Source: the human T2T-CHM13v2.0 reference genome, Homo sapiens
DNA: 64,000 nucleotides
Reading direction: 5' to 3' (one strand)
Assembly (NCBI RefSeq): GCF_009914755.1
Contig: NC_060938.1
The notes under the pieces were generated by a model. That model was not told the DNA's origin. It saw only the letters and a program-made list of their open reading frames with translations, and did no database searches. A program made the position numbers and the translations under genes. Below are positions 38,655-64,000 of this stretch, one piece after another (position 1 is the stretch's first letter; each line of letters begins with the position of its first letter).

Positions 38655-39786
38655 GTCTGTCTAACACCAGAGCTCGGGCGCTGCTGCAGAGGGAGCCAAG
38701 ATTTGGGTGAGGGAGGGGGCTCAGAGGTGGGATGGAGGGTTTTTTTGTATTTTTTTTTAACCTGGTTGCCATTGGCTTGAAAATAATAACATAACTTTGC
38801 TTGGGGACCCCCCACTGCAACTATCTTGCTGATGGGGAAGCAGGCACAGAGACGTTAGTTTGCTTTGCTGATGTCACCCAGCTCGTCTGGCATTGAGGCT
38901 GGATTTGGGAGGTGGGTACTGAGGTGTGAGCATATGTGCTGCAACCACTGGGCCCACTGGCTCGTGGTGTGTGCGCAGGTGCAGATGGCTCAGTGATCTG
39001 GGTTTGAGGGCTTTTACCAATCCCCCCAGCAGTGGGTGTACTCTGAACTCAAGCTTGTGTATTTCACACTCTCCCTCGACCCTTCTCTTTAGCCTTCACT
39101 GAAAACTCCTGCAAGCCACTGACCCATGGAAAATATTTAAGAATACATATATTACATATATGTTGTAAATTTATATATATATGTATCTGGAAAGGGATTG
39201 TATCCAGGAGATTTGGGAGTGATTGTTTAAGGTAGAGGGAGGCAGGGGCATGAGAGGGGGAGGGATGGAGGTGGGGACCACCAGTGGTAATTCTCGTGGG
39301 TGGTTTTAACAATCAATACAAGAAGAGAGAGACATGCCAGCAGCAAGGACGGGAGTGGGTTGTAAACCAGGGATGGTGATTAATTCTTCACAACTGAGGG
39401 GCATTAAAAAAAGAAATCAGAGTGGTTCGTGGCTATTAATTTTGTTATTAAAAATAATCAAGGAATAAAGAAATAAGGTAATAAAGGCCTCGAATGGAAC
39501 AATTCTGAGAATGTGTTCTGGGCAAAGGATTATGACTAATCCAGGTCTGGTAACCTGATATTAACAAACAAAAAAGGCCTCGTAGGCTATTTTCTTTTTT
39601 TAACCGGCTTTATGTTCCATAGAATGGGCACACTGGGGTTTCTCTCCCAGAGAAGGTGAGTGCAGACAAATAAAAGCCGGCTTTGTGGGTGTTGATTGAA
39701 CAGTTAAAAATGAATGAATGCGTAAATAAAACCAGAGACAGCCAAGCATGTACCAATGATGGCAATGTGTTCCTCACTCCCCAGCT

Positions 39787-40155
39787 TTATAAATATATAA
39801 TTGATAAATCAGTATTGTATGTATTTGTATTGTATTTAAATTGTACAGTGTGACATTTTGATATACATATATATTGTGAAATGATTACCATAATCAAGCG
39901 AATTAACATACCCATCACCTCATGTAGTTCCGTTTTTCCATGTGTGCAGTGAGAATACTTAAGGTCTACTCTTTTAGCAAATTTCAAGCATGAAATACAT
40001 TATTGTTAACTATAGTCACCGTACTCTGCATTGGGTTACCAGAACTTACTCCTAACTGCATCTTACTCCTAAGTTTGCATCCTCTCACTAAGATCTCCAG
40101 ATTCCTCTCACTCCTGACCCCTAGTAACTACCTTTCTAGTCTCTGCTTCTGTGAG
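39787..40155 (-). mobile_element. L1MA-type 3' end fragment interrupting a snoRNA relic
   Basis: TTGTGAAATGATTACCATAATCAAGCGAATTAACATACCCATCACCTCA, L1M 3' UTR reverse complement; directly follows TGTACCAATGATGGCAATGTGT. Confidence 0.75.
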
Positions 40156-42045
40156 GTTATTCCAAAACAAAAGCCAGGTTCTAGGCTGTTGAGGCTGAGG
40201 GTAGGAAGTGTATCAACAGGTATACAGAATAGTCACTGGTCTTGGGCTAAATGGTGACTTCAAGTGTAGTGGCTGCATAGTCAAAAATGAATTAGATGAG
40301 TACAAAAGTGACGAAATGAAAGAATGTCAAGAATGGACCACAAAGACAGTGTTTTATGACCTAAAGATTAAGATTTATCCATTTGTGTACAATTGTGGAC
40401 TATATAAAATAAAACAAGACTTTGACCTCAGTGGATAAGAAGTATTTGGATGTACTAATCAATATTTTTGGTCTGGGTCAGTGGTGGGTTCATCTGTGTT
40501 TGTTGTATTTAAAAAAATAAATGAAAACATTGAAAAGGGTGAGTAGGAATCAAATATGATTGTCACTCCAAGTCTGTGTCATCTGCATCCGTTAGGAAGA
40601 ATATCTGGGTTGGTTCCTTCTTGGGTAAGATGCACAGGGACATATGTTTGTGAGAGTCATGATTCTTGTTTTTGATTAGAGTGGTGAATTAATACACACT
40701 CATTTGTAATAATACAAATTAATAAATGAATAATTGCGGAGAGCTATGCTTGGGCCAGTGGTGAGACTGTCATGAACCAAAGATTATGATTAATACTGTG
40801 CTTCTCACCTGATGGCCATTAAAAAAATCTAGGTTTTTTCATCCTTTTTAATATCAGCCTTGTGTTCCACAGAATGGAGGCTCCAGAGTGAAATTAATGA
40901 CACTTTGTCGATGAAGATCTTGATTGTGACCTCTGTGGAAAATGAGCCATGAACCAACCAATGTGAGTAATGTTTAGTGTTGTTGTTTTGAAGTTGGGTG
41001 GTTGGTTGATGGTTGTTTATTACATTATTAAACGTGAATCAATACATAAATAAGGTCAAAGATGACGGGCATGATGAGAATGTCATGAACCAAGGGTGAT
41101 TAATTTCATATAGCGTAACTGTTACCAAATTAAAAAACAATATTACTGGGCTGTTCTCTGTAGCAAATGAGCAAAGAAAAAAAGGAACACACACACACAC
41201 ACACACGTATACTACATATATATCACATGTATCATGTGTTATGTTTATACATGTATCCTATATATATATCACATACGTAATATGTGTTATGTTTATTTTT
41301 CATATTTGCAGGCTGGGGTGGGTTTATATATGTTTATGGGGTAATTAAACATAAATGGATGCATGTATAAACAAGATCAAAGAGAGTCAAGCATGGACTA
41401 ATGAAGACAATGTATCATGATCTAAGATTTATGATTGCACAGCTCTGCAAATTGGAGAGACATTGAAACACAAATATTTATGCTGTTTCATTCATTTCAG
41501 TAGCATTCCACTATTAATTTATGCACTACAATTTTGCATGAACACTTCCCTATTGAAGAAGTTTGGGATGTTATGTCGGTGGCAGAGAGTCACATAGGGA
41601 AGTAAGGTATTGGTCGTTTTCTGTTTGTTGAATAGGATTCGTGATTGTTCTTTCATGATTTTTGTTTAAAGCGATAAATAAAACTTAAAAGGGCCAAGCA
41701 TAGATAATGAGGATAATATTTCATGTAAAGTGAGGCTTATTAATTAAATTCTACACAAGTAAAAGTCATTAAAAATGATCCAGGGTGTTTATTTTTCTAA
41801 TAGTTGCTGTTTGTTGCACAGAATGGACAAATCATAGTTTATATAGTCATGCAGTATTTATGAGAATGTTGACTCTTACTTGGGTAGATAAGGTACTTAA
41901 AGAAAATGTAATTAATAGTTGATGTTGTTAAATCTTGGCTGGAGAGTTGTTTAAGGGTGTTCATAAATGAGTAAATGAATGAATGAACAAACACATGAAT
42001 AAAACAAGAGAGGGCAAACATGGGACAAAGGTGATCATATCTCAT

Positions 42046-42787
42046 TGTCGTAAATTCTTTTTATGTAGCTTCAGCATCCGTTTTTAACCTAAGTTTAACT
42101 TTCTCATTCCAGAAGCAGGCTTAGTCACCCTTGACACAGTTTGCAGTTATCCACCTCCTCCAAGTTCTTAATATGTTAGATCCAGATAACTGCCTTGTAC
42201 AGCCACCTCCAGGATACTGCCTCCCTAAAAAACAGCTAGATACACTGACCCCACAGCCTATGTGGACCACACAGATATACTGGCTTGCTCTAAATGCACC
42301 AGTGAGAACTCTCTGCAGGAAACCTGCTTGGGAAATGCCATAGCCTGCAATACAGGCTTTCCCCTTCCCGCTGGCCCTGTGAGGCATGCAGGATCTGTAA
42401 GTAATAAACTGCTTCTGTTGTTTCATTTCATGTGTTTTGTTGAGTTGCTTCCTCTGTGTCTCACCTGACCAACACACTTGAATTGAACTTCTTTCCTGGT
42501 CAGGGATCTCCTAGAGAATGGCTATCTTGGCAGGAATAGACTAGATGTAGGTCAGACAAGAACCACAGGGGTACTGCCAGTGTAAATGAGTTTCCTATGA
42601 GAGGGACACCTGGTAATGGATAGGATGCTTAGGCATTAGACTGTCTGCTGGGATAAAGACGTATCCCGTAAAAGATACGCTGTAAACACCCATGACCACC
42701 TCTCCTGCATCCCCATCAGGCAGAGCTAGAATTTATATTCACTCTCTTGAGACAGACCTCAAGACCATGTTAGAAGAAAGTACAACA
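42046..42787 (+). mobile_element. Solo LTR (ERV/ERVL class, family not assigned)
   Basis: TG...CA termini, 5-bp TSD CTCAT (42041-42045 and 42788-42792), AATAAA at 42403. Confidence 0.85.
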
Positions 42788-43369
42788 CTCATCATCCTAG
42801 AATTATGATTATTCCAATTCAGTTCATCCAAGGTCCCTTTAAAAATGCATTGGTTAAAGAGTCAGTTAATATTCTTTTTTTTGGCATGGTGGCATGTTGG
42901 ATGTTGATTTTAGTACTAAAAATAAATAAATAATTACCTAAGTGTGTAAAATAAACAAAAGGCCAAAACATGGACTGGTGATGAGAATGGTCCAAGAATG
43001 AAAGCATTATAGTTAATTAAATTCTGACTGCCACACAAATAACCTACCCTGTTTCACTTCCTTTACCAGCTGTTTTGTATTTCATTTTGTACATGAACAT
43101 AGTTTATTTACACGTTTGCCCATAAATAGAAATCTGGGCTATTTACTCTGACCAAGGAGCACACAAAGAGATGAAAGATGACGTCAGTGTTCTATTAGTG
43201 GAGTAACAGATTGGATTTATGATTGCTCATTGCAACTTCTTTAGAAATGATCAAATCAAATAAAAGAGTGTCAGCATAAACCAATGATGATGTTTCATGA
43301 AGCAGAGATCATGATTAATCCAATTAGGTTCATTAGAAAAAGTTCTAGAATATAACCTAAGAGTATTTT

Positions 43370-63000: not shown

Positions 63001-63200
63001 ATAGAGTCACTACTGAATTTTTTTTGATGATTTTCTATCCAGCAATTTTACTGAAGTCATTTATCAGTTCTAACAGTTTTTTTTTTTTGTGTGAGGTAGT
63101 TTGGATTTTCTGTATATAAAATCGTGTCATCAGCAAATAGAGACAATCTCACCTCTTCTTTTTTCTATAAAGATGCCTTTTATTTCTTCTTGTTCTTCTA
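60034..63200 (-). mobile_element. Old L1M fragments (two or more) with a nested minus-strand Alu at ~61040-61313
   Basis: ORF2-like peptides ([41 protein letters not shown]); TATTGTTGAGT TSD around the Alu. Confidence 0.88.
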
Positions 63201-63920
63201 GGATAAGTCTACTTTTCTTCCACGTAACAACCACAGGATAGATGACATTCATTTTCTAAGAAACAAAATCTTGGCAGTTAGATCCGTGGGGTAAAGAATA
63301 TAGATACTAATGTAAGTTAACACCTCAAGTTCATGTCCTTGGTTTGGATGCTTTGTTCAGGAGTGTTTAGTGGTATTTCAAAGGAATCAATATCTATAAC
63401 AAATTAAAATAACCAGGAATGGACCAGTGATGGAAATGTGTTCCGAAAATATGTTTAATATAATTTGGCACAACTGAAGTGATAAAAATATAGTAGTTAG
63501 ACCATTTATATTCACAATTATTTAACATTGTATCTTATTTTCTACCTCAAATGATTTAATCTTTTCCATATTGGTATGGTCCTGGCCGATAACTCTTTGT
63601 GTGGCAGCCTGAGAGAATATGGAAGACACTGTCAGTGTTGGAAGATGGTGGTTTTATCACTTTTCATTGCACTGTCTTTAAAACATGGGCAAATTGACTA
63701 AAAGAAGACTACAGAAGAAATAATGGTGATTGTGAATTTGGTATGAAGCATGGATGTTAATTAATCACACATGTTCTCTGAGGTCCATTGTAAAAGGAGA
63801 CCTAGTCTTCAGGGAGAGAGCCACTAATGGGGAGATCTTATTCCTAGAATTTTGTGGTTATATTATTATTCATGAACCAATGAATAATAAATGAATGATA
63901 TAAAGGAAGAAAAACGTGCT

Positions 63921-63994
63921 TGGACCAATGATGAGTACCATGGGGTATCTGAAACAGGATTTTTGATTAAACCCATATGCAATTCTGAGGTCCA
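63921..63994 (+). ncRNA. SNORD113-4: C/D box snoRNA SNORD113-4
   Basis: TGGACC-ATGATGA...CTGA...TTGATTA...CTGA-GGTCCA, perfect terminal stem. Confidence 0.92.
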
Positions 63995-64000
63995 TTACAA

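What the first reader, a model, noticed from the sequence alone, without database searches (positions are those of the whole stretch)
39340..64000. Fossil tandem array of about 50 decayed C/D snoRNA units hiding between the named SNORD113 genes
Seen: apart from transposons, almost all of this region is one repeated unit. Each unit is an AT-rich spacer (...TAAATAAAAGAGGGCCAAGCA) followed by a ~70-nt SNORD112/113-like body. Relics start at about 39345, 39495, 39749, 40334, 40751, 41065, 41394, 41701, 42021, 42971, 43277, 43983, 44677, 45007, 45322, 46478, 47006, 47131, 47373, 47697, 48014, 48261, 48512, 50875, 51112, 51646, 51990, 52475, 52741, 52962, 53163, 53409, 53638, 53857, 54187, 54491, 54991, 55246, 55472, 55947, 56260, 57097, 57603, 58168, 58458, 58658, 59067, 63420 and 63720. 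Known: this cluster arose by tandem amplification. Inference: the named genes are only about one unit in ten of a much denser ancestral birth-and-death array that began ~13 kb before SNORD113-1. A few relics may already be Rfam hits, and I cannot confirm how much of this has been catalogued.
Basis: partly seen in the sequence, partly recalled or inferred. Interest (0 to 1): 0.85.

Follow-up and report, generated by a model that had tools for sequence, protein, structure and literature searches.

The report
Fossil snoRNA repeat array in MEG8
The DNA before and between the human SNORD113 genes is built from about fifty worn-out copies of a SNORD112-like small nucleolar RNA unit, which shows that this imprinted gene cluster grew by duplication in two tiers followed by decay.

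Summary
A profile built only from the five named genes finds 16 further plus-strand copies at E<=0.01. It finds none on the minus strand and none in 30 shuffles.

The unit is about 250-300 bp. It holds a SNORD112-like body, an A-run, a splice-donor relic, an AT-rich spacer and a GCCAAGCA flank. The majority consensus of the relics is an intact C/D snoRNA and is 90% identical to SNORD112. No relic (0 of 52) keeps both the C box and the D box.

- The units fall into subfamilies that recur in a fixed order (a-b-c-v-x-y-z-SNORD113), forming a higher-order repeat of about 2.5 kb.
- The array runs to about 127 kb and flanks the SNORD114 block on both sides.

"Almost all of the region" is overstated. 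Coverage is 60% of unmasked bases, or about 73% without two transposon-filled gaps.

I found no printed description of this array, but the founding 2002 paper could not be read.

The parts
25257..25749 (+). Outpost of the same repeat: spacer, SNORD112 (25350-25426), its homologous downstream spacer, and one unlisted relic body at 25659-25723, which starts 307 nt after SNORD112
   Evidence: Whole-unit profile hits at 25257-25339 (E 1.1e-4), 25350-25641 (E 1.3e-20) and 25659-25749 (E 3e-8). Body hit E 2.7e-7. Alignment shown.
39333..39399 (+). First relic body of the main array (listed 39345)
   Evidence: E 1.1e-7. Leave-one-out E 4.1e-4.
39488..39559 (+). Relic body (listed 39495)
   Evidence: E 5.6e-11. 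Rfam SNORD112 28.7 bits. Leave-one-out E 1.1e-8.
39741..39771 (+). Truncated relic holding only the flank and first 31 columns (listed 39749)
   Evidence: E 7.3e-5. Leave-one-out E 1.2e-4.
40326..40392 (+). Relic body (listed 40334)
   Evidence: E 1.6e-9. Rfam 29.1 bits.
40743..40817 (+). Best-kept relic (listed 40751). The C box reads TGGTGA, the D box CTGA is kept and a terminal stem is kept. It lies 52 nt before the annotated MEG8 exon 40873-40962.
   Evidence: Rfam SNORD112 40.8 bits. E 4.6e-15. Boxes. Exon context.
40873..40962 (+). Annotated MEG8 exon inside a monomer. Its donor (40962/40963) aligns to the GTAAG donor motif of the monomer consensus.
   Evidence: The exon coordinates come from the hub's gene table.
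41072..41109 (+). Relic body lacking its 5' part (listed 41065)
   Evidence: E 4.9e-4. Leave-one-out E 4.1e-4.
41386..41449 (+). Relic body, y-type (listed 41394)
   Evidence: E 2.8e-7. Tree clade with SNORD112, support 98/98.
41693..41944 (+). Weak relic body with a recognisable spacer (listed 41701)
   Evidence: Body E 0.36. Leave-one-out whole unit E 0.001. One search hit 41738-42015, E 1.1e-10.
42790..42966 (+). Unlisted monomer: 3' half of a body plus spacer
   Evidence: Body E 0.0084. Whole-unit E 3e-18, but this unit was in the training set.
42967..43026 (+). Relic body, y-type (listed 42971)
   Evidence: E 0.0018. Leave-one-out unit E 9.1e-12.
43274..43331 (+). Relic body (listed 43277)
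   Evidence: E 4.4e-9. Rfam 31.8 bits.
43977..44050 (+). Relic body with C box intact and D box reading ATGA (listed 43983)
   Evidence: E 1.9e-12. Rfam 35.8 bits. Boxes.
44669..44727 (+). Relic body, x-type (listed 44677)
   Evidence: E 5.4e-12. Joins the x clade at support 95/96.
45001..45068 (+). Relic body, y-type, with C box intact and D box lost (listed 45007)
   Evidence: E 7.9e-15. Rfam 34.2 bits. Boxes.
45315..45400 (+). Relic body, z/SNORD113-related (listed 45322)
   Evidence: E 4.2e-7. Clade support 98/98.
46491..46664 (+). Relic: 3' half of a body plus spacer (listed 46478)
   Evidence: Body E 0.011. Whole-unit E 3e-11, not in the training set.
46998..47015 (+). Weak stub of 18 columns (listed 47006)
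   Evidence: E 0.31 and 0.24 leave-one-out. Not counted as supported.
47131..47187 (+). Relic body, b-type (listed 47131)
   Evidence: E 9.9e-9. b clade support 99/97.
47375..47440 (+). Relic body (listed 47373)
   Evidence: E 8.3e-4. Leave-one-out E 6.3e-4.
47698..47764 (+). Relic body (listed 47697)
   Evidence: E 5.7e-8.
48006..48079 (+). Relic body, z-type, the slot just before a SNORD113-type unit (listed 48014)
   Evidence: E 1.4e-6. Its best partners are 54491, 57097 and 51996.
48111..48395 (+). SNORD113-type pseudogene unit (body at 48261-48331), 4 kb before SNORD113-1
   Evidence: Rfam RF00181 26.7 bits against a gathering score of 36. blastn 69% over 297 nt to the SNORD113-3 unit, E 5e-20. 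S113 clade support 98/96.
48510..48529 (+). Weak stub (listed 48512)
   Evidence: E 0.75. Not supported.
48530..50868 (.). Gap in the array filled by interspersed repeats
   Evidence: 0 of 1189 unmasked bases covered. 49344-50503 is 69% identical to 61785-62916 and 75% identical to a stretch 123.5 kb from the window start.
50869..50932 (+). Relic body, v-type (listed 50875)
   Evidence: E 4.3e-9.
51104..51172 (+). Relic body, x-type (listed 51112)
   Evidence: E 1.5e-5. x clade support 98/94.
51638..51714 (+). Relic body, y-type (listed 51646)
   Evidence: E 1.2e-12. Rfam 27 bits.
52018..52208 (+). Relic, z-type, with its 5' part lost (listed 51990)
   Evidence: Body E 0.074. Leave-one-out unit E 4.1e-17.
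52250..52319 (+). SNORD113-1, occupying one monomer slot
   Evidence: Rfam 37.9 bits. Both boxes present.
52468..52539 (+). Relic body, a-type, the slot just after a SNORD113 gene (listed 52475)
   Evidence: E 3.1e-8. Clade with 54988 and 57603, support 96/92.
52735..52802 (+). Relic body, b-type (listed 52741)
   Evidence: E 2.4e-6.
52955..53030 (+). Relic body, c-type (listed 52962)
   Evidence: E 5.4e-11. Rfam 29.2 bits.
53156..53213 (+). Relic body, b-type (listed 53163)
   Evidence: E 7.3e-9.
53401..53471 (+). Relic body, c-type (listed 53409)
   Evidence: E 2.7e-13. Rfam 40.6 bits.
53637..53705 (+). Relic body, v-type (listed 53638)
   Evidence: E 8.5e-10. Rfam 29.9 bits.
53849..53915 (+). 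Relic body, x-type (listed 53857). Its unit keeps a GTAAG donor.
   Evidence: E 1.4e-8. Donor.
54183..54250 (+). Relic body, y-type (listed 54187)
   Evidence: E 2.2e-9. 53874-54442 aligns to 55974-56507 over 580 nt, E 6e-13.
54484..54552 (+). Relic body, z-type (listed 54491)
   Evidence: E 8.5e-7.
54771..54841 (+). SNORD113-2, a named gene that itself lacks canonical boxes
   Evidence: Rfam 32.2 bits, below the gathering score of 36. The C position reads TCATTA and the D position CAGA.
54992..55243 (+). Relic, a-type (listed 54991)
   Evidence: Body E 0.48. Leave-one-out unit E 9.1e-4. Paralogue of 57603.
55238..55301 (+). Relic body, b-type (listed 55246)
   Evidence: E 3.2e-8.
55468..55662 (+). 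Relic with a weak body and a clear spacer (listed 55472)
   Evidence: Whole-unit E 4.3e-9, not in the training set.
55942..55996 (+). Relic body, x-type (listed 55947)
   Evidence: E 2.8e-10. Rfam 27.9 bits.
56252..56320 (+). Relic body, y-type (listed 56260)
   Evidence: E 2.5e-10. Rfam 29.4 bits.
57119..57342 (+). Relic, z-type (listed 57097)
   Evidence: Whole-unit E 2.4e-10, not in the training set. 57054-57147 aligns to 63668-63765, E 9e-11.
57348..57418 (+). SNORD113-3
   Evidence: Rfam 59.3 bits. Both boxes present.
57608..57760 (+). Relic, a-type (listed 57603)
   Evidence: Whole-unit E 8.6e-8.
58171..58343 (+). Relic, c-type (listed 58168)
   Evidence: Whole-unit E 1.3e-6. Clade support 98/81.
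58468..58620 (+). Relic, v-type (listed 58458)
   Evidence: Whole-unit E 1.7e-5, not in the training set. Pairs with 53637.
58651..58727 (+). Relic body, x-type (listed 58658)
   Evidence: E 2.5e-13. Rfam 31.6 bits.
59711..63256 (.). Second gap, holding interspersed repeats
   Evidence: Alu-type sub-threshold SRP hits.
63202..63399 (+). Annotated MEG8 exon 63202-63311 with the spacer of a monomer. The donor at 63311/63312 aligns to the consensus GTAAG.
   Evidence: Whole-unit hit 63257-63399, E 5.2e-11. Alignment. Donor.
63413..63480 (+). Relic body, y-type (listed 63420)
   Evidence: E 2.2e-9.
63734..63786 (+). Relic body, z-type (listed 63720)
   Evidence: E 3e-4. Leave-one-out unit E 3.2e-9.
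63921..63994 (+). SNORD113-4
   Evidence: Rfam 56.9 bits. Both boxes present.

Best explanation
Window 39339-64000 is the proximal part of a decayed head-to-tail array. The array runs on to about 127 kb from the window start.

The monomer is about 250-300 bp. It consists of a SNORD112-like box C/D snoRNA, an A-run, a short exon end with a GTAAG splice donor, an intron start, an AT-rich stretch, and the flank GCCAAGCA just before the next body.

The proposed history has four steps.
1. A first tier of tandem duplication produced many such snoRNA-plus-exon monomers inside the MEG8 host transcript.
2. The monomers diverged into subfamilies. One of these became the SNORD113 type.
3. A second tier copied blocks of about 8-10 monomers (order a-b-c-v-x-y-z-SNORD113, about 2.5 kb). 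This is why the named SNORD113 genes are about 2.5 kb apart.
4. All monomers except the SNORD113 slot, and SNORD112 in an outpost at 25.3 kb, lost their C or D box or terminal stem.

Today the relics are most likely inert intron sequence of MEG8. A few still supply splice donors.

Shown here: homology, strand, period, spacer homology, loss of boxes, subfamily clades and their repeated order. Inferred: that the monomers were once working snoRNA genes, the order of the events, and present inertness.
For: Homology and controls:
- A profile from the named genes only gave 16 extra plus-strand hits at E<=0.01, with 0 on the minus strand and 0 in 30 shuffles.
- Rfam gave 18 sub-threshold plus-strand hits and none on the minus strand.
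- The whole-unit profile gave 221 plus and 0 minus hits at E<=0.01 over 144 kb.
- 45 of 49 listed starts passed leave-one-out or independent tests.

Period: 31 of 48 gaps lie in 200-350 bp, P 3.7e-13.

Anatomy:
- The spacer is homologous across 31 aligned units, giving a 247-column consensus.
- Both annotated MEG8 donors in the stretch align to the consensus GTAAG. Of 47 units covering those columns, 10 keep GT and 4 keep GTRAG.

Ancestry:
- The relic-only majority consensus has TGGACC, the C box TGATGA, D' ATGA, C' TGATTA, the D box CTGA and GGTCC.
- SNORD112 is 90% identical to the profile consensus. The relics have a median identity of 60%.

Decay: 0 of 52 relics have both boxes, 7 keep the C box and 16 keep the D box. 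Paralogues in the x and y slots carry different box lesions.

Higher-order repeat:
- A two-monomer alignment, 53874-54442 to 55974-56507, has E 6e-13.
- Best partners are specific to slots.
- Clade supports are S113 98/96, x 98/94, a 96/92, b 99/97, c 98/81, z+S113 98/98, and SNORD112 with the y type 98/98.
- The same slot order appears in five successive blocks of the window and again near SNORD113-7 and SNORD113-9.
Against: - No expression, snoRNP-binding or cross-species data could be consulted. Past function of each monomer and present inertness are therefore inferences.
- Box and stem columns are only slightly better kept than guide and loop columns (0.74-0.83 against 0.67-0.71 among aligned bases). 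That is weak as a trace of past selection and is biased by local alignment.
- The z group is monophyletic with only 65/58 support. The y and v groups as I first defined them are not monophyletic.
- Slot labels came from the same data. The automatic typing was disturbed by overlapping test windows, so the slot order rests on the labels.
- Terminal branches are long (median 0.38 changes per site), so alignments of the weakest units are uncertain.
- 40% of unmasked bases in 39340-64000 are not covered by significant hits.
Confidence: 0.85

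Rival explanations
1. Passenger model. Only the first few monomers were ever working snoRNA genes. Most relics between the SNORD113 genes were already dead when the 2.5 kb blocks were copied, so they record block duplication and not the deaths of individual genes.
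For: - The slot-ordered higher-order repeat shows that the relics were copied in blocks.
- No z-slot member has an intact C box, and three of five lack an alignable 5' part.
- Two x-slot members, 53857 and 58659, share the reading CAAA at the D box.
Against: - In the x and y slots the C-box lesions differ from copy to copy. Intact C and intact D boxes each survive in different paralogues. This places an intact ancestor at the time of block copying.
- The majority consensus of all 52 relics is intact.
- SNORD112, a live gene, nests inside the y type.
Confidence: 0.3
2. The units are repeated independent insertions of a SINE-like retroposon that carries a snoRNA-like module. They would then not be tandem duplicates of a host-gene unit.
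For: - SNORD112-like copies are dispersed over many chromosomes: 33 hits at E<=0.01, from only 62 of about 666,000 candidates scored.
- All 12 fetched copies end at the A-run after the body. 4 of 12 also carry upstream monomer spacer at E<=1.9e-4.
Against: - In the array all 221 significant hits lie on one strand and abut head to tail with a regular period.
- Multi-monomer blocks align in register, and subfamilies recur in a fixed order. Independent insertion does not predict either.
- The units contain the host gene's own annotated splice donors.
Confidence: 0.03
3. The relics are not inert. They are kept as parts of MEG8, for example as splice or processing modules or as weak protein-binding sites, or because the repeated array itself matters to the imprinted domain.
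For: - Two monomers supply annotated MEG8 exons and donors, and two more keep GTRAG.
- 40751 keeps its D box and terminal stem 52 nt before an annotated exon.
- A review discusses a role of such tandem repeats in imprinting of the host locus (passages only).
Against: - The relics have a median identity of 60% to their consensus, and no box is systematically kept.
- 37 of 47 donor positions have lost GT.
- No conservation or expression data were available.
Confidence: 0.1
4. The similarity is a chance product of AT-rich, low-complexity sequence.
For: - The spacers are AT-rich.
- Tandem Repeats Finder reports no array with a period of about 270 bp.
Against: - There were 0 hits at E<=0.01 in 30 composition-preserving shuffles and on the reversed sequence, and 0-2 on the minus strand, against 20-42 on the plus strand.
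- The non-AT-rich body and spacer motifs align.
- The Tandem Repeats Finder tool text says that arrays with copies less than about 70% alike usually fall below its score threshold.
Confidence: 0.01

Closest known systems
SNORD112 (Rfam RF01169), the single-copy C/D snoRNA of MEG8 at window 25350-25426
   Same: The relic consensus has the same architecture: terminal stem, C, D', C' and D boxes in the same places. SNORD112 matches the profile consensus at 64 of 71 body columns. Its flanking spacers are homologous to the monomer spacer. It nests within the y-type relics.
   Different: SNORD112 scores 106 bits and has both boxes. The best relic scores 40.8 bits against a gathering score of 58, and none has both boxes.
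SNORD113/SNORD114 tandem repeats of MEG8 (Rfam RF00181). The repeats are described in Cavaille et al. 2002, which I could not read. It is known to me only through citations and from recall.
   Same: Same locus, same strand and same host transcript. The SNORD113 genes occupy one slot of the same monomer series, and their units align over their full length with relic units.
   Different: In the texts I saw, the clusters are described as arrays of snoRNA genes in repeated introns. Here each interval of about 2.5 kb between SNORD113 genes is itself made of 7-10 decayed monomers of about 270 bp. The SNORD114 block is different: 36 genes to 4 relics.
Birth-and-death evolution and pseudogenes of SNORD115/SNORD116 at the Prader-Willi locus (PMC4063771, passages and section 18 read; PMC8789076, passages)
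   Same: Both are tandem imprinted C/D snoRNA arrays with copies disabled by box mutations, read as remnants of gene death.
   Different: That paper reports divergent evolution, with copies clustering by orthologue, for the 14q(I) family. In the text I read it lists no pseudogenes for 14q32. Its supplementary PDFs were not seen. Here the relics outnumber the genes about 13 to 1 in 39.3-64 kb (52 relic units to 4 named genes) and form a higher-order repeat.
Higher-order repeats of alpha-satellite DNA (recalled from general knowledge; an analogy only)
   Same: Diverged monomers recur in a fixed order, so that a multi-monomer block is the unit of later amplification.
   Different: The monomers here are gene units (snoRNA plus exon donor) inside a transcribed host gene. 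The blocks are old and about 65-70% alike, not near-identical.
snoRNA retroposons (snoRTs; Weber 2006, PMC1687206, passages read)
   Same: Dispersed SNORD112-like copies elsewhere in the genome end in an A-rich run.
   Different: The array units are not dispersed insertions. Even the dispersed copies differ from the snoRTs described: 4 of 12 carry upstream spacer, whereas snoRTs are said to start at the mature 5' end, with U99 as the single exception.

Membership tests
Working box C/D snoRNA gene | C box (RUGAUGA) near the 5' end | tested here: not met
   TGATGA at the aligned columns in 7 of 52 relics, against 4 of 5 named genes.
Working box C/D snoRNA gene | D box (CUGA) near the 3' end, together with the C box | tested here: not met
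   CTGA in 16 of 52 relics. Both boxes in 0 of 52. Local alignment may miss a shifted box.
Working box C/D snoRNA gene | Terminal 5'/3' stem | tested here: inconclusive
   The 5' half TGGACC is common, but the 3' half is aligned in few relics. Among all 52, the 3' stem columns match the consensus at 0.27. Pairing was not scored unit by unit.
Working box C/D snoRNA gene | Accumulates as a stable RNA bound by the core snoRNP proteins | not testable with these tools
   No expression or CLIP data were available.
Rfam RF01169 (SNORD112) | Covariance-model score at or above the gathering score of 58 bits | tested here: not met
   Only 25350-25426 passes. The relics score 21.4-40.8 bits.
Rfam RF01169 (SNORD112) | Homology to the family (descent from it) | tested here: met
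   17 sub-threshold plus-strand hits and none on the minus strand. Profile searches with controls. Relic consensus.
Rfam RF00181 (SNORD113/114) | Score at or above 36 bits | tested here: not met
   48261-48331 scores 26.7 bits. The named SNORD113-2 also fails at 32.2 bits.
Tandem repeat array | Copies head to tail on one strand with a regular period and homologous spacers | tested here: met
   221 plus and 0 minus hits. 31 of 48 gaps in 200-350 bp. Spacer consensus.
Higher-order repeat | Distinct monomer subfamilies recurring in the same order | tested here: met
   Supported clades for S113, x, a, b and c. Multi-monomer alignments in register. The order a-b-c-v-x-y-z-S appears in five blocks. 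The y and v groups are not cleanly monophyletic.
snoRNA retroposon (snoRT) | Isolated insertion starting at the mature 5' end, with an A-tail and a target-site duplication | tested here: not met
   Array units continue into homologous sequence on both sides. Target-site duplications were not searched for.

The most novel reading that the evidence does not exclude
What is described as the SNORD113 repeat unit would be a higher-order repeat of about eight distinct SNORD112-type monomers, each a snoRNA plus a mini-exon. The early eutherian MEG8 would then have carried dozens of live SNORD112-like snoRNAs at a spacing of about 270 bp, and SNORD113/114 would be one diverged slot that alone was kept. 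The later SNORD114 expansion would have split this old array into a proximal and a distal relic field. The dispersed genomic copies that carry upstream spacer would be retrocopies of snoRNA-ended precursor RNAs from that dense array, and so a second fossil record of its activity.
Probability: 0.35. Interest if true: 0.6.

Novelty: new variant of a known kind. Interest (0 to 1): 0.45.

Why it matters
SNORD112, SNORD113 and SNORD114 are orphan, imprinted, eutherian-only snoRNAs whose origin and targets are open questions. The relic array adds four things.

- A concrete ancestry: SNORD112 is the best living image of the founding monomer.
- A two-tier growth model for the cluster.
- A defined set of about 50 slots that can be compared across mammals, to see which snoRNAs were kept, where and for how long.
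- A warning for annotation. SNORD113-2 is no better preserved than several unnamed relics. Sub-threshold SNORD112 hits in this region are real homologues and not noise.

None of this changes what is known about present function.

Tried and rejected
- Tandem Repeats Finder found no array with a period of about 270 bp, only microsatellites and short duplications. The copies are too diverged for it.
- A BLAST-type search of the whole assembly with SNORD112 plus its upstream spacer returned only itself. The number of dispersed copies therefore remains a lower bound.
- Body-only leave-one-out failed for 55472, 57097, 57603, 58168 and 58458. These five needed the whole-unit profile.
- In one search the 'unit only' results for 47006 and 58458 were hits on the next unit. 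I did not count them.
- Automatic slot typing was contaminated by overlap between neighbouring 260-nt test windows. I used the labels instead.
- My first parse of the donor columns failed and was redone.
- The chance and retroposon-insertion readings were rejected.
- Literature searches and passage look-ups found no description of a dense relic array or a higher-order repeat at 14q32. Searches were search listings; the others were passages or one section.
- The founding paper, Cavaille et al. 2002 (doi 10.1093/hmg/11.13.1527), is not held and may mention degenerate copies.
- The supplementary PDFs of PMC4063771 were not seen.

Full report
THE QUESTION. The unit was described as an AT-rich spacer followed by a SNORD112/113-like body of about 70 nt. 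The named genes were said to be the survivors of a much denser array.

IS IT THERE? At Rfam gathering scores, only SNORD112 (25350) and SNORD113-1, -3 and -4 are found among snoRNAs. In E-value mode over 38700-64000 there are 18 further sub-threshold matches at unnamed places. Seventeen are to RF01169 SNORD112 (21.4-40.8 bits; the gathering score is 58) and one is to RF00181 at 48261 (26.7 bits). All are on the plus strand and all lie at or within 5 nt of listed starts. Neither family has a minus-strand match. Printing the 49 listed places side by side already shows the shared start, the internal motifs and the flank.

CONTROLS. In the whole window it gave 43 hits at E<=10, 41 of them on the plus strand, and 16 unnamed hits at E<=0.01. 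Restricted to 39340-64000 it gave 20 plus and 0 minus hits at E<=0.01. There were none in 30 local (300-nt block) dinucleotide shuffles and none on the reversed sequence. Iterating to convergence gave 42 plus and 2 minus hits at E<=0.01, against a shuffle mean of 0.03.

Because an iterated profile scores its own members circularly, I also ran leave-one-out tests. With the body profile, 37 of 49 listed starts pass at E<=0.01 and 42 at E<=1. A whole-unit profile rebuilt without the tested unit adds 41701, 51990, 54991, 55472, 57097, 57603 and 58168. 58458 is supported by an independent hit. The tally is 45 of 49 supported, 47006 and 48512 as weak stubs, and 42021 and 59067 unsupported. Two apparent rescues (47006, 58458) were hits on the neighbouring unit and were not counted.

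PERIOD. Of the 48 gaps between successive unit anchors, 31 lie in 200-350 bp, where 8.2 would be expected for randomly placed points (binomial P 3.7e-13). Net of masked repeats, the median gap is 273.5 bp. Several larger gaps are near multiples of that. Tandem Repeats Finder does not see the array, as expected for copies this diverged.

ANATOMY OF THE UNIT. Aligning 31 complete units gives a 247-column consensus. In order it has:
- the body (about 75 nt);
- an A-run;
- a moderately conserved stretch that ends in a GTAAG splice-donor motif;
- a T/G-rich stretch;
- an AT-rich run;
- the flank ending in GCCAAGCA directly before the next body.

The two MEG8 exons annotated in this interval (40873-40962 and 63202-63311) both end exactly at the consensus donor. 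Of 47 units that cover those columns, 10 keep GT and 4 keep GTRAG. Two of those four are the annotated donors. I infer that the ancestral monomer was a small host-gene module, an exon end plus an intron carrying a snoRNA, and not only a snoRNA.

STATE OF DECAY. The majority consensus of the 52 relic bodies alone is a textbook C/D snoRNA. It has a 5' stem half TGGACC, C box TGATGA, D' ATGA, C' TGATTA, D box CTGA and a 3' stem half GGTCC. SNORD112 matches the profile consensus at 64 of 71 columns (90%). The relics have a median of 60%, with a range of 10-75%. No relic keeps both boxes (0 of 52). Seven keep the C box and 16 keep the D box.

The best-kept relic, 40751, has TGGTGA at the C box. From the established kink-turn model of box C/D RNAs (my own knowledge), that A-to-G change removes one of the two sheared G-A pairs. 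The relic is therefore most likely dead, although it keeps its D box and stem and sits 52 nt before an exon.

The named SNORD113-2 has neither box (it reads TCATTA and CAGA) and falls below the Rfam gathering score (32.2 against 36). The line between 'gene' and 'relic' is thus partly one of naming.

Because the consensus is intact, and because paralogues in the x and y slots carry different box lesions, most disabling changes came after duplication. This is the main support for a birth-and-death history. Box columns are only slightly better kept than other columns, so a trace of past selection is not demonstrated.

A self-comparison gives alignments that span more than one monomer in register. 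For example, 53874-54442 aligns to 55974-56507 over 580 nt at 65% identity, E 6e-13. It also shows that 48111-48395 is a SNORD113-type unit, 69% identical over 297 nt to the SNORD113-3 unit, E 5e-20. Best-partner lists are specific to slots.

A maximum-likelihood tree of 46 whole units gives these supported groups:
- the SNORD113 type (98/96);
- x (51112, 53857, 55947, 58659; 98/94);
- a, the unit right after SNORD113-1, -2 and -3 (52475, 54988, 57603; 96/92);
- b (47130, 52741, 53164, 55246; 99/97);
- c (52963, 53409, 58168; 98/81);
- z plus the SNORD113 type plus 45322 (98/98);
- SNORD112 together with the y-type units (98/98).

The z group alone has only 65/58 support. My y and v groups are not cleanly monophyletic.

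Read along the chromosome, the labels give b-b-v-z-S, v-x-y-z-S, a-b-c-b-c-v-x-y-z-S, a-b-b-x-y-z-S and a-c-v-x-y-z-S. All five agree with a single order a-b-c-v-x-y-z-S. The pattern returns near SNORD113-7 and SNORD113-9 beyond the window. The spacing of about 2.5 kb between the named genes is therefore the period of a higher-order repeat with one SNORD113 slot. It follows that one relic does not equal one independent gene death.

EXTENT. I fetched the next 80 kb of the same assembly. The whole-unit profile gives 221 plus and 0 minus hits at E<=0.01 over the 144 kb. Coverage starts abruptly at 39.3 kb and ends at about 127.4 kb. Body-profile relics against genes (Rfam gathering hits or named genes) by zone are:

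| Zone | Relics | Genes |
|---|---|---|
| 39.3-64 kb | 35 (plus one starting at 39333) | 4 |
| 64-77.2 kb | 17 | 5 |
| SNORD114 block, 77.2-122.5 kb | 4 | 36 |
| Distal patch, 122.5-128 kb | 8 | 1 |

An outpost holds SNORD112 with homologous spacers and one relic 307 nt downstream. Between 25.75 and 39.3 kb there are no hits.

Within 39340-64000, significant hits cover 59.5% of NCBI-unmasked bases. Two gaps (48.5-50.9 kb and 59.7-63.25 kb) hold sequence that recurs elsewhere in the 144 kb, including outside the array, and is therefore an interspersed repeat. Without these gaps coverage is about 73%, by my arithmetic on the figures.

DISPERSED COPIES (a side finding). The Rfam SNORD112 model finds 33 places in the assembly at E<=0.01, most of them on other chromosomes. 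Two exceed the gathering score. Only 62 of about 666,000 first-look candidates were scored, so this count is a lower bound. All 12 copies I fetched match the body and stop at the A-run. Four of the 12 also carry upstream monomer spacer (E 6.7e-9 to 1.9e-4), one of them including the donor motif. By eye, most of the others show the AT-rich and flank signature. Published snoRNA retroposons are said to start at the mature 5' end, with one exception (passages). I did not resolve what RNA these copies came from.

RIVALS.
- Chance similarity is excluded.
- Independent retroposon insertion does not fit one strand, head-to-tail packing, block alignments and a fixed slot order.
- The passenger model, in which relics were already dead when the blocks were copied, is partly compatible with the data and cannot be excluded for the z slot. 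It is contradicted for x and y by the differing lesions.
- A present function for the relics is not supported by their degree of decay, but it could not be tested.

WHAT IS KNOWN. The texts I could read describe the 14q32 snoRNAs as arrays of SNORD113 and SNORD114 genes in repeated introns, arising in the eutherian stem. Pseudogenes as remnants of gene death are described for the Prader-Willi arrays. For the 14q(I) family, that paper reports divergent evolution with orthologous clustering and, in the section I read, no pseudogene catalogue. Eight full-text searches and the passage look-ups gave no description of the dense monomer array or its higher-order repeat. The founding paper of 2002 is not held, and supplementary PDFs were not seen, so priority is open.

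VERDICT. Two corrections apply: the relics are of SNORD112 type, and they were amplified in blocks. This is a real and well-preserved evolutionary fossil of moderate interest. No new function is shown.

Noticed in passing
window 54771-54841: The named gene SNORD113-2 lacks canonical boxes (it reads TCATTA at the C box and CAGA at the D box). It scores 32.2 bits, below the Rfam gathering score of 36, so it looks like a pseudogene itself.
   Followed up: partly
window 48111-48395: An unnamed SNORD113-type pseudogene unit lies 4 kb before SNORD113-1. It scores 26.7 bits against RF00181 and is 69% identical over 297 nt to the SNORD113-3 unit.
   Followed up: yes
window 25257-25749: SNORD112 sits in a two-monomer outpost of the same repeat. 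Its spacers on both sides are homologous to the monomer spacer, and a decayed second body lies at 25659-25723.
   Followed up: yes
L010-L021 (twelve places on chromosomes 1, 3, 6, 7, 8, 10, 14, 18 and X of the same assembly): SNORD112-like copies are dispersed through the genome, and two exceed the Rfam gathering score. All 12 fetched copies end at the A-run after the body. At least 4 carry upstream monomer spacer, unlike the snoRNA retroposons described in print.
   Followed up: partly
beyond the window, 122.9-127.4 kb from the window start (L007-L008): A second dense field of SNORD112-type relics, spaced about 210-320 bp apart, lies distal to the SNORD114 block. The block itself holds almost no relics: 4 against 36 genes.
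   Followed up: partly
L002-L008: Rfam finds 42 RF00181 matches at gathering score in the 80 kb after the window. From recall, not from any call, the named set there is 5 SNORD113 plus 31 SNORD114 genes. If so, a few above-threshold copies may be unnamed.
   Followed up: no
window 49344-50503 and 61785-62916: Two copies of a repeat of about 1.15 kb, 69% alike, fill the two large gaps of the array. A third copy lies 123.5 kb from the window start (75% over 650 nt). I could not name the family.
   Followed up: partly
window 43416-43659, 45959-46191, 46695-46844, 59310-59917, 61060-61193: Sub-threshold matches to Metazoa_SRP, mir-1268, mir-1285 and mir-3135 mark Alu-type insertions that interrupt monomers.
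   Followed up: no
window 44100-44222: A (TATC)n microsatellite with 31 copies lies inside the array.
   Followed up: no
window 41395-41699 and 53858-54176: Two monomers that supply no exon to the listed MEG8 transcript still keep a full GTRAG donor motif at the consensus position. They might serve other isoforms.
   Followed up: no
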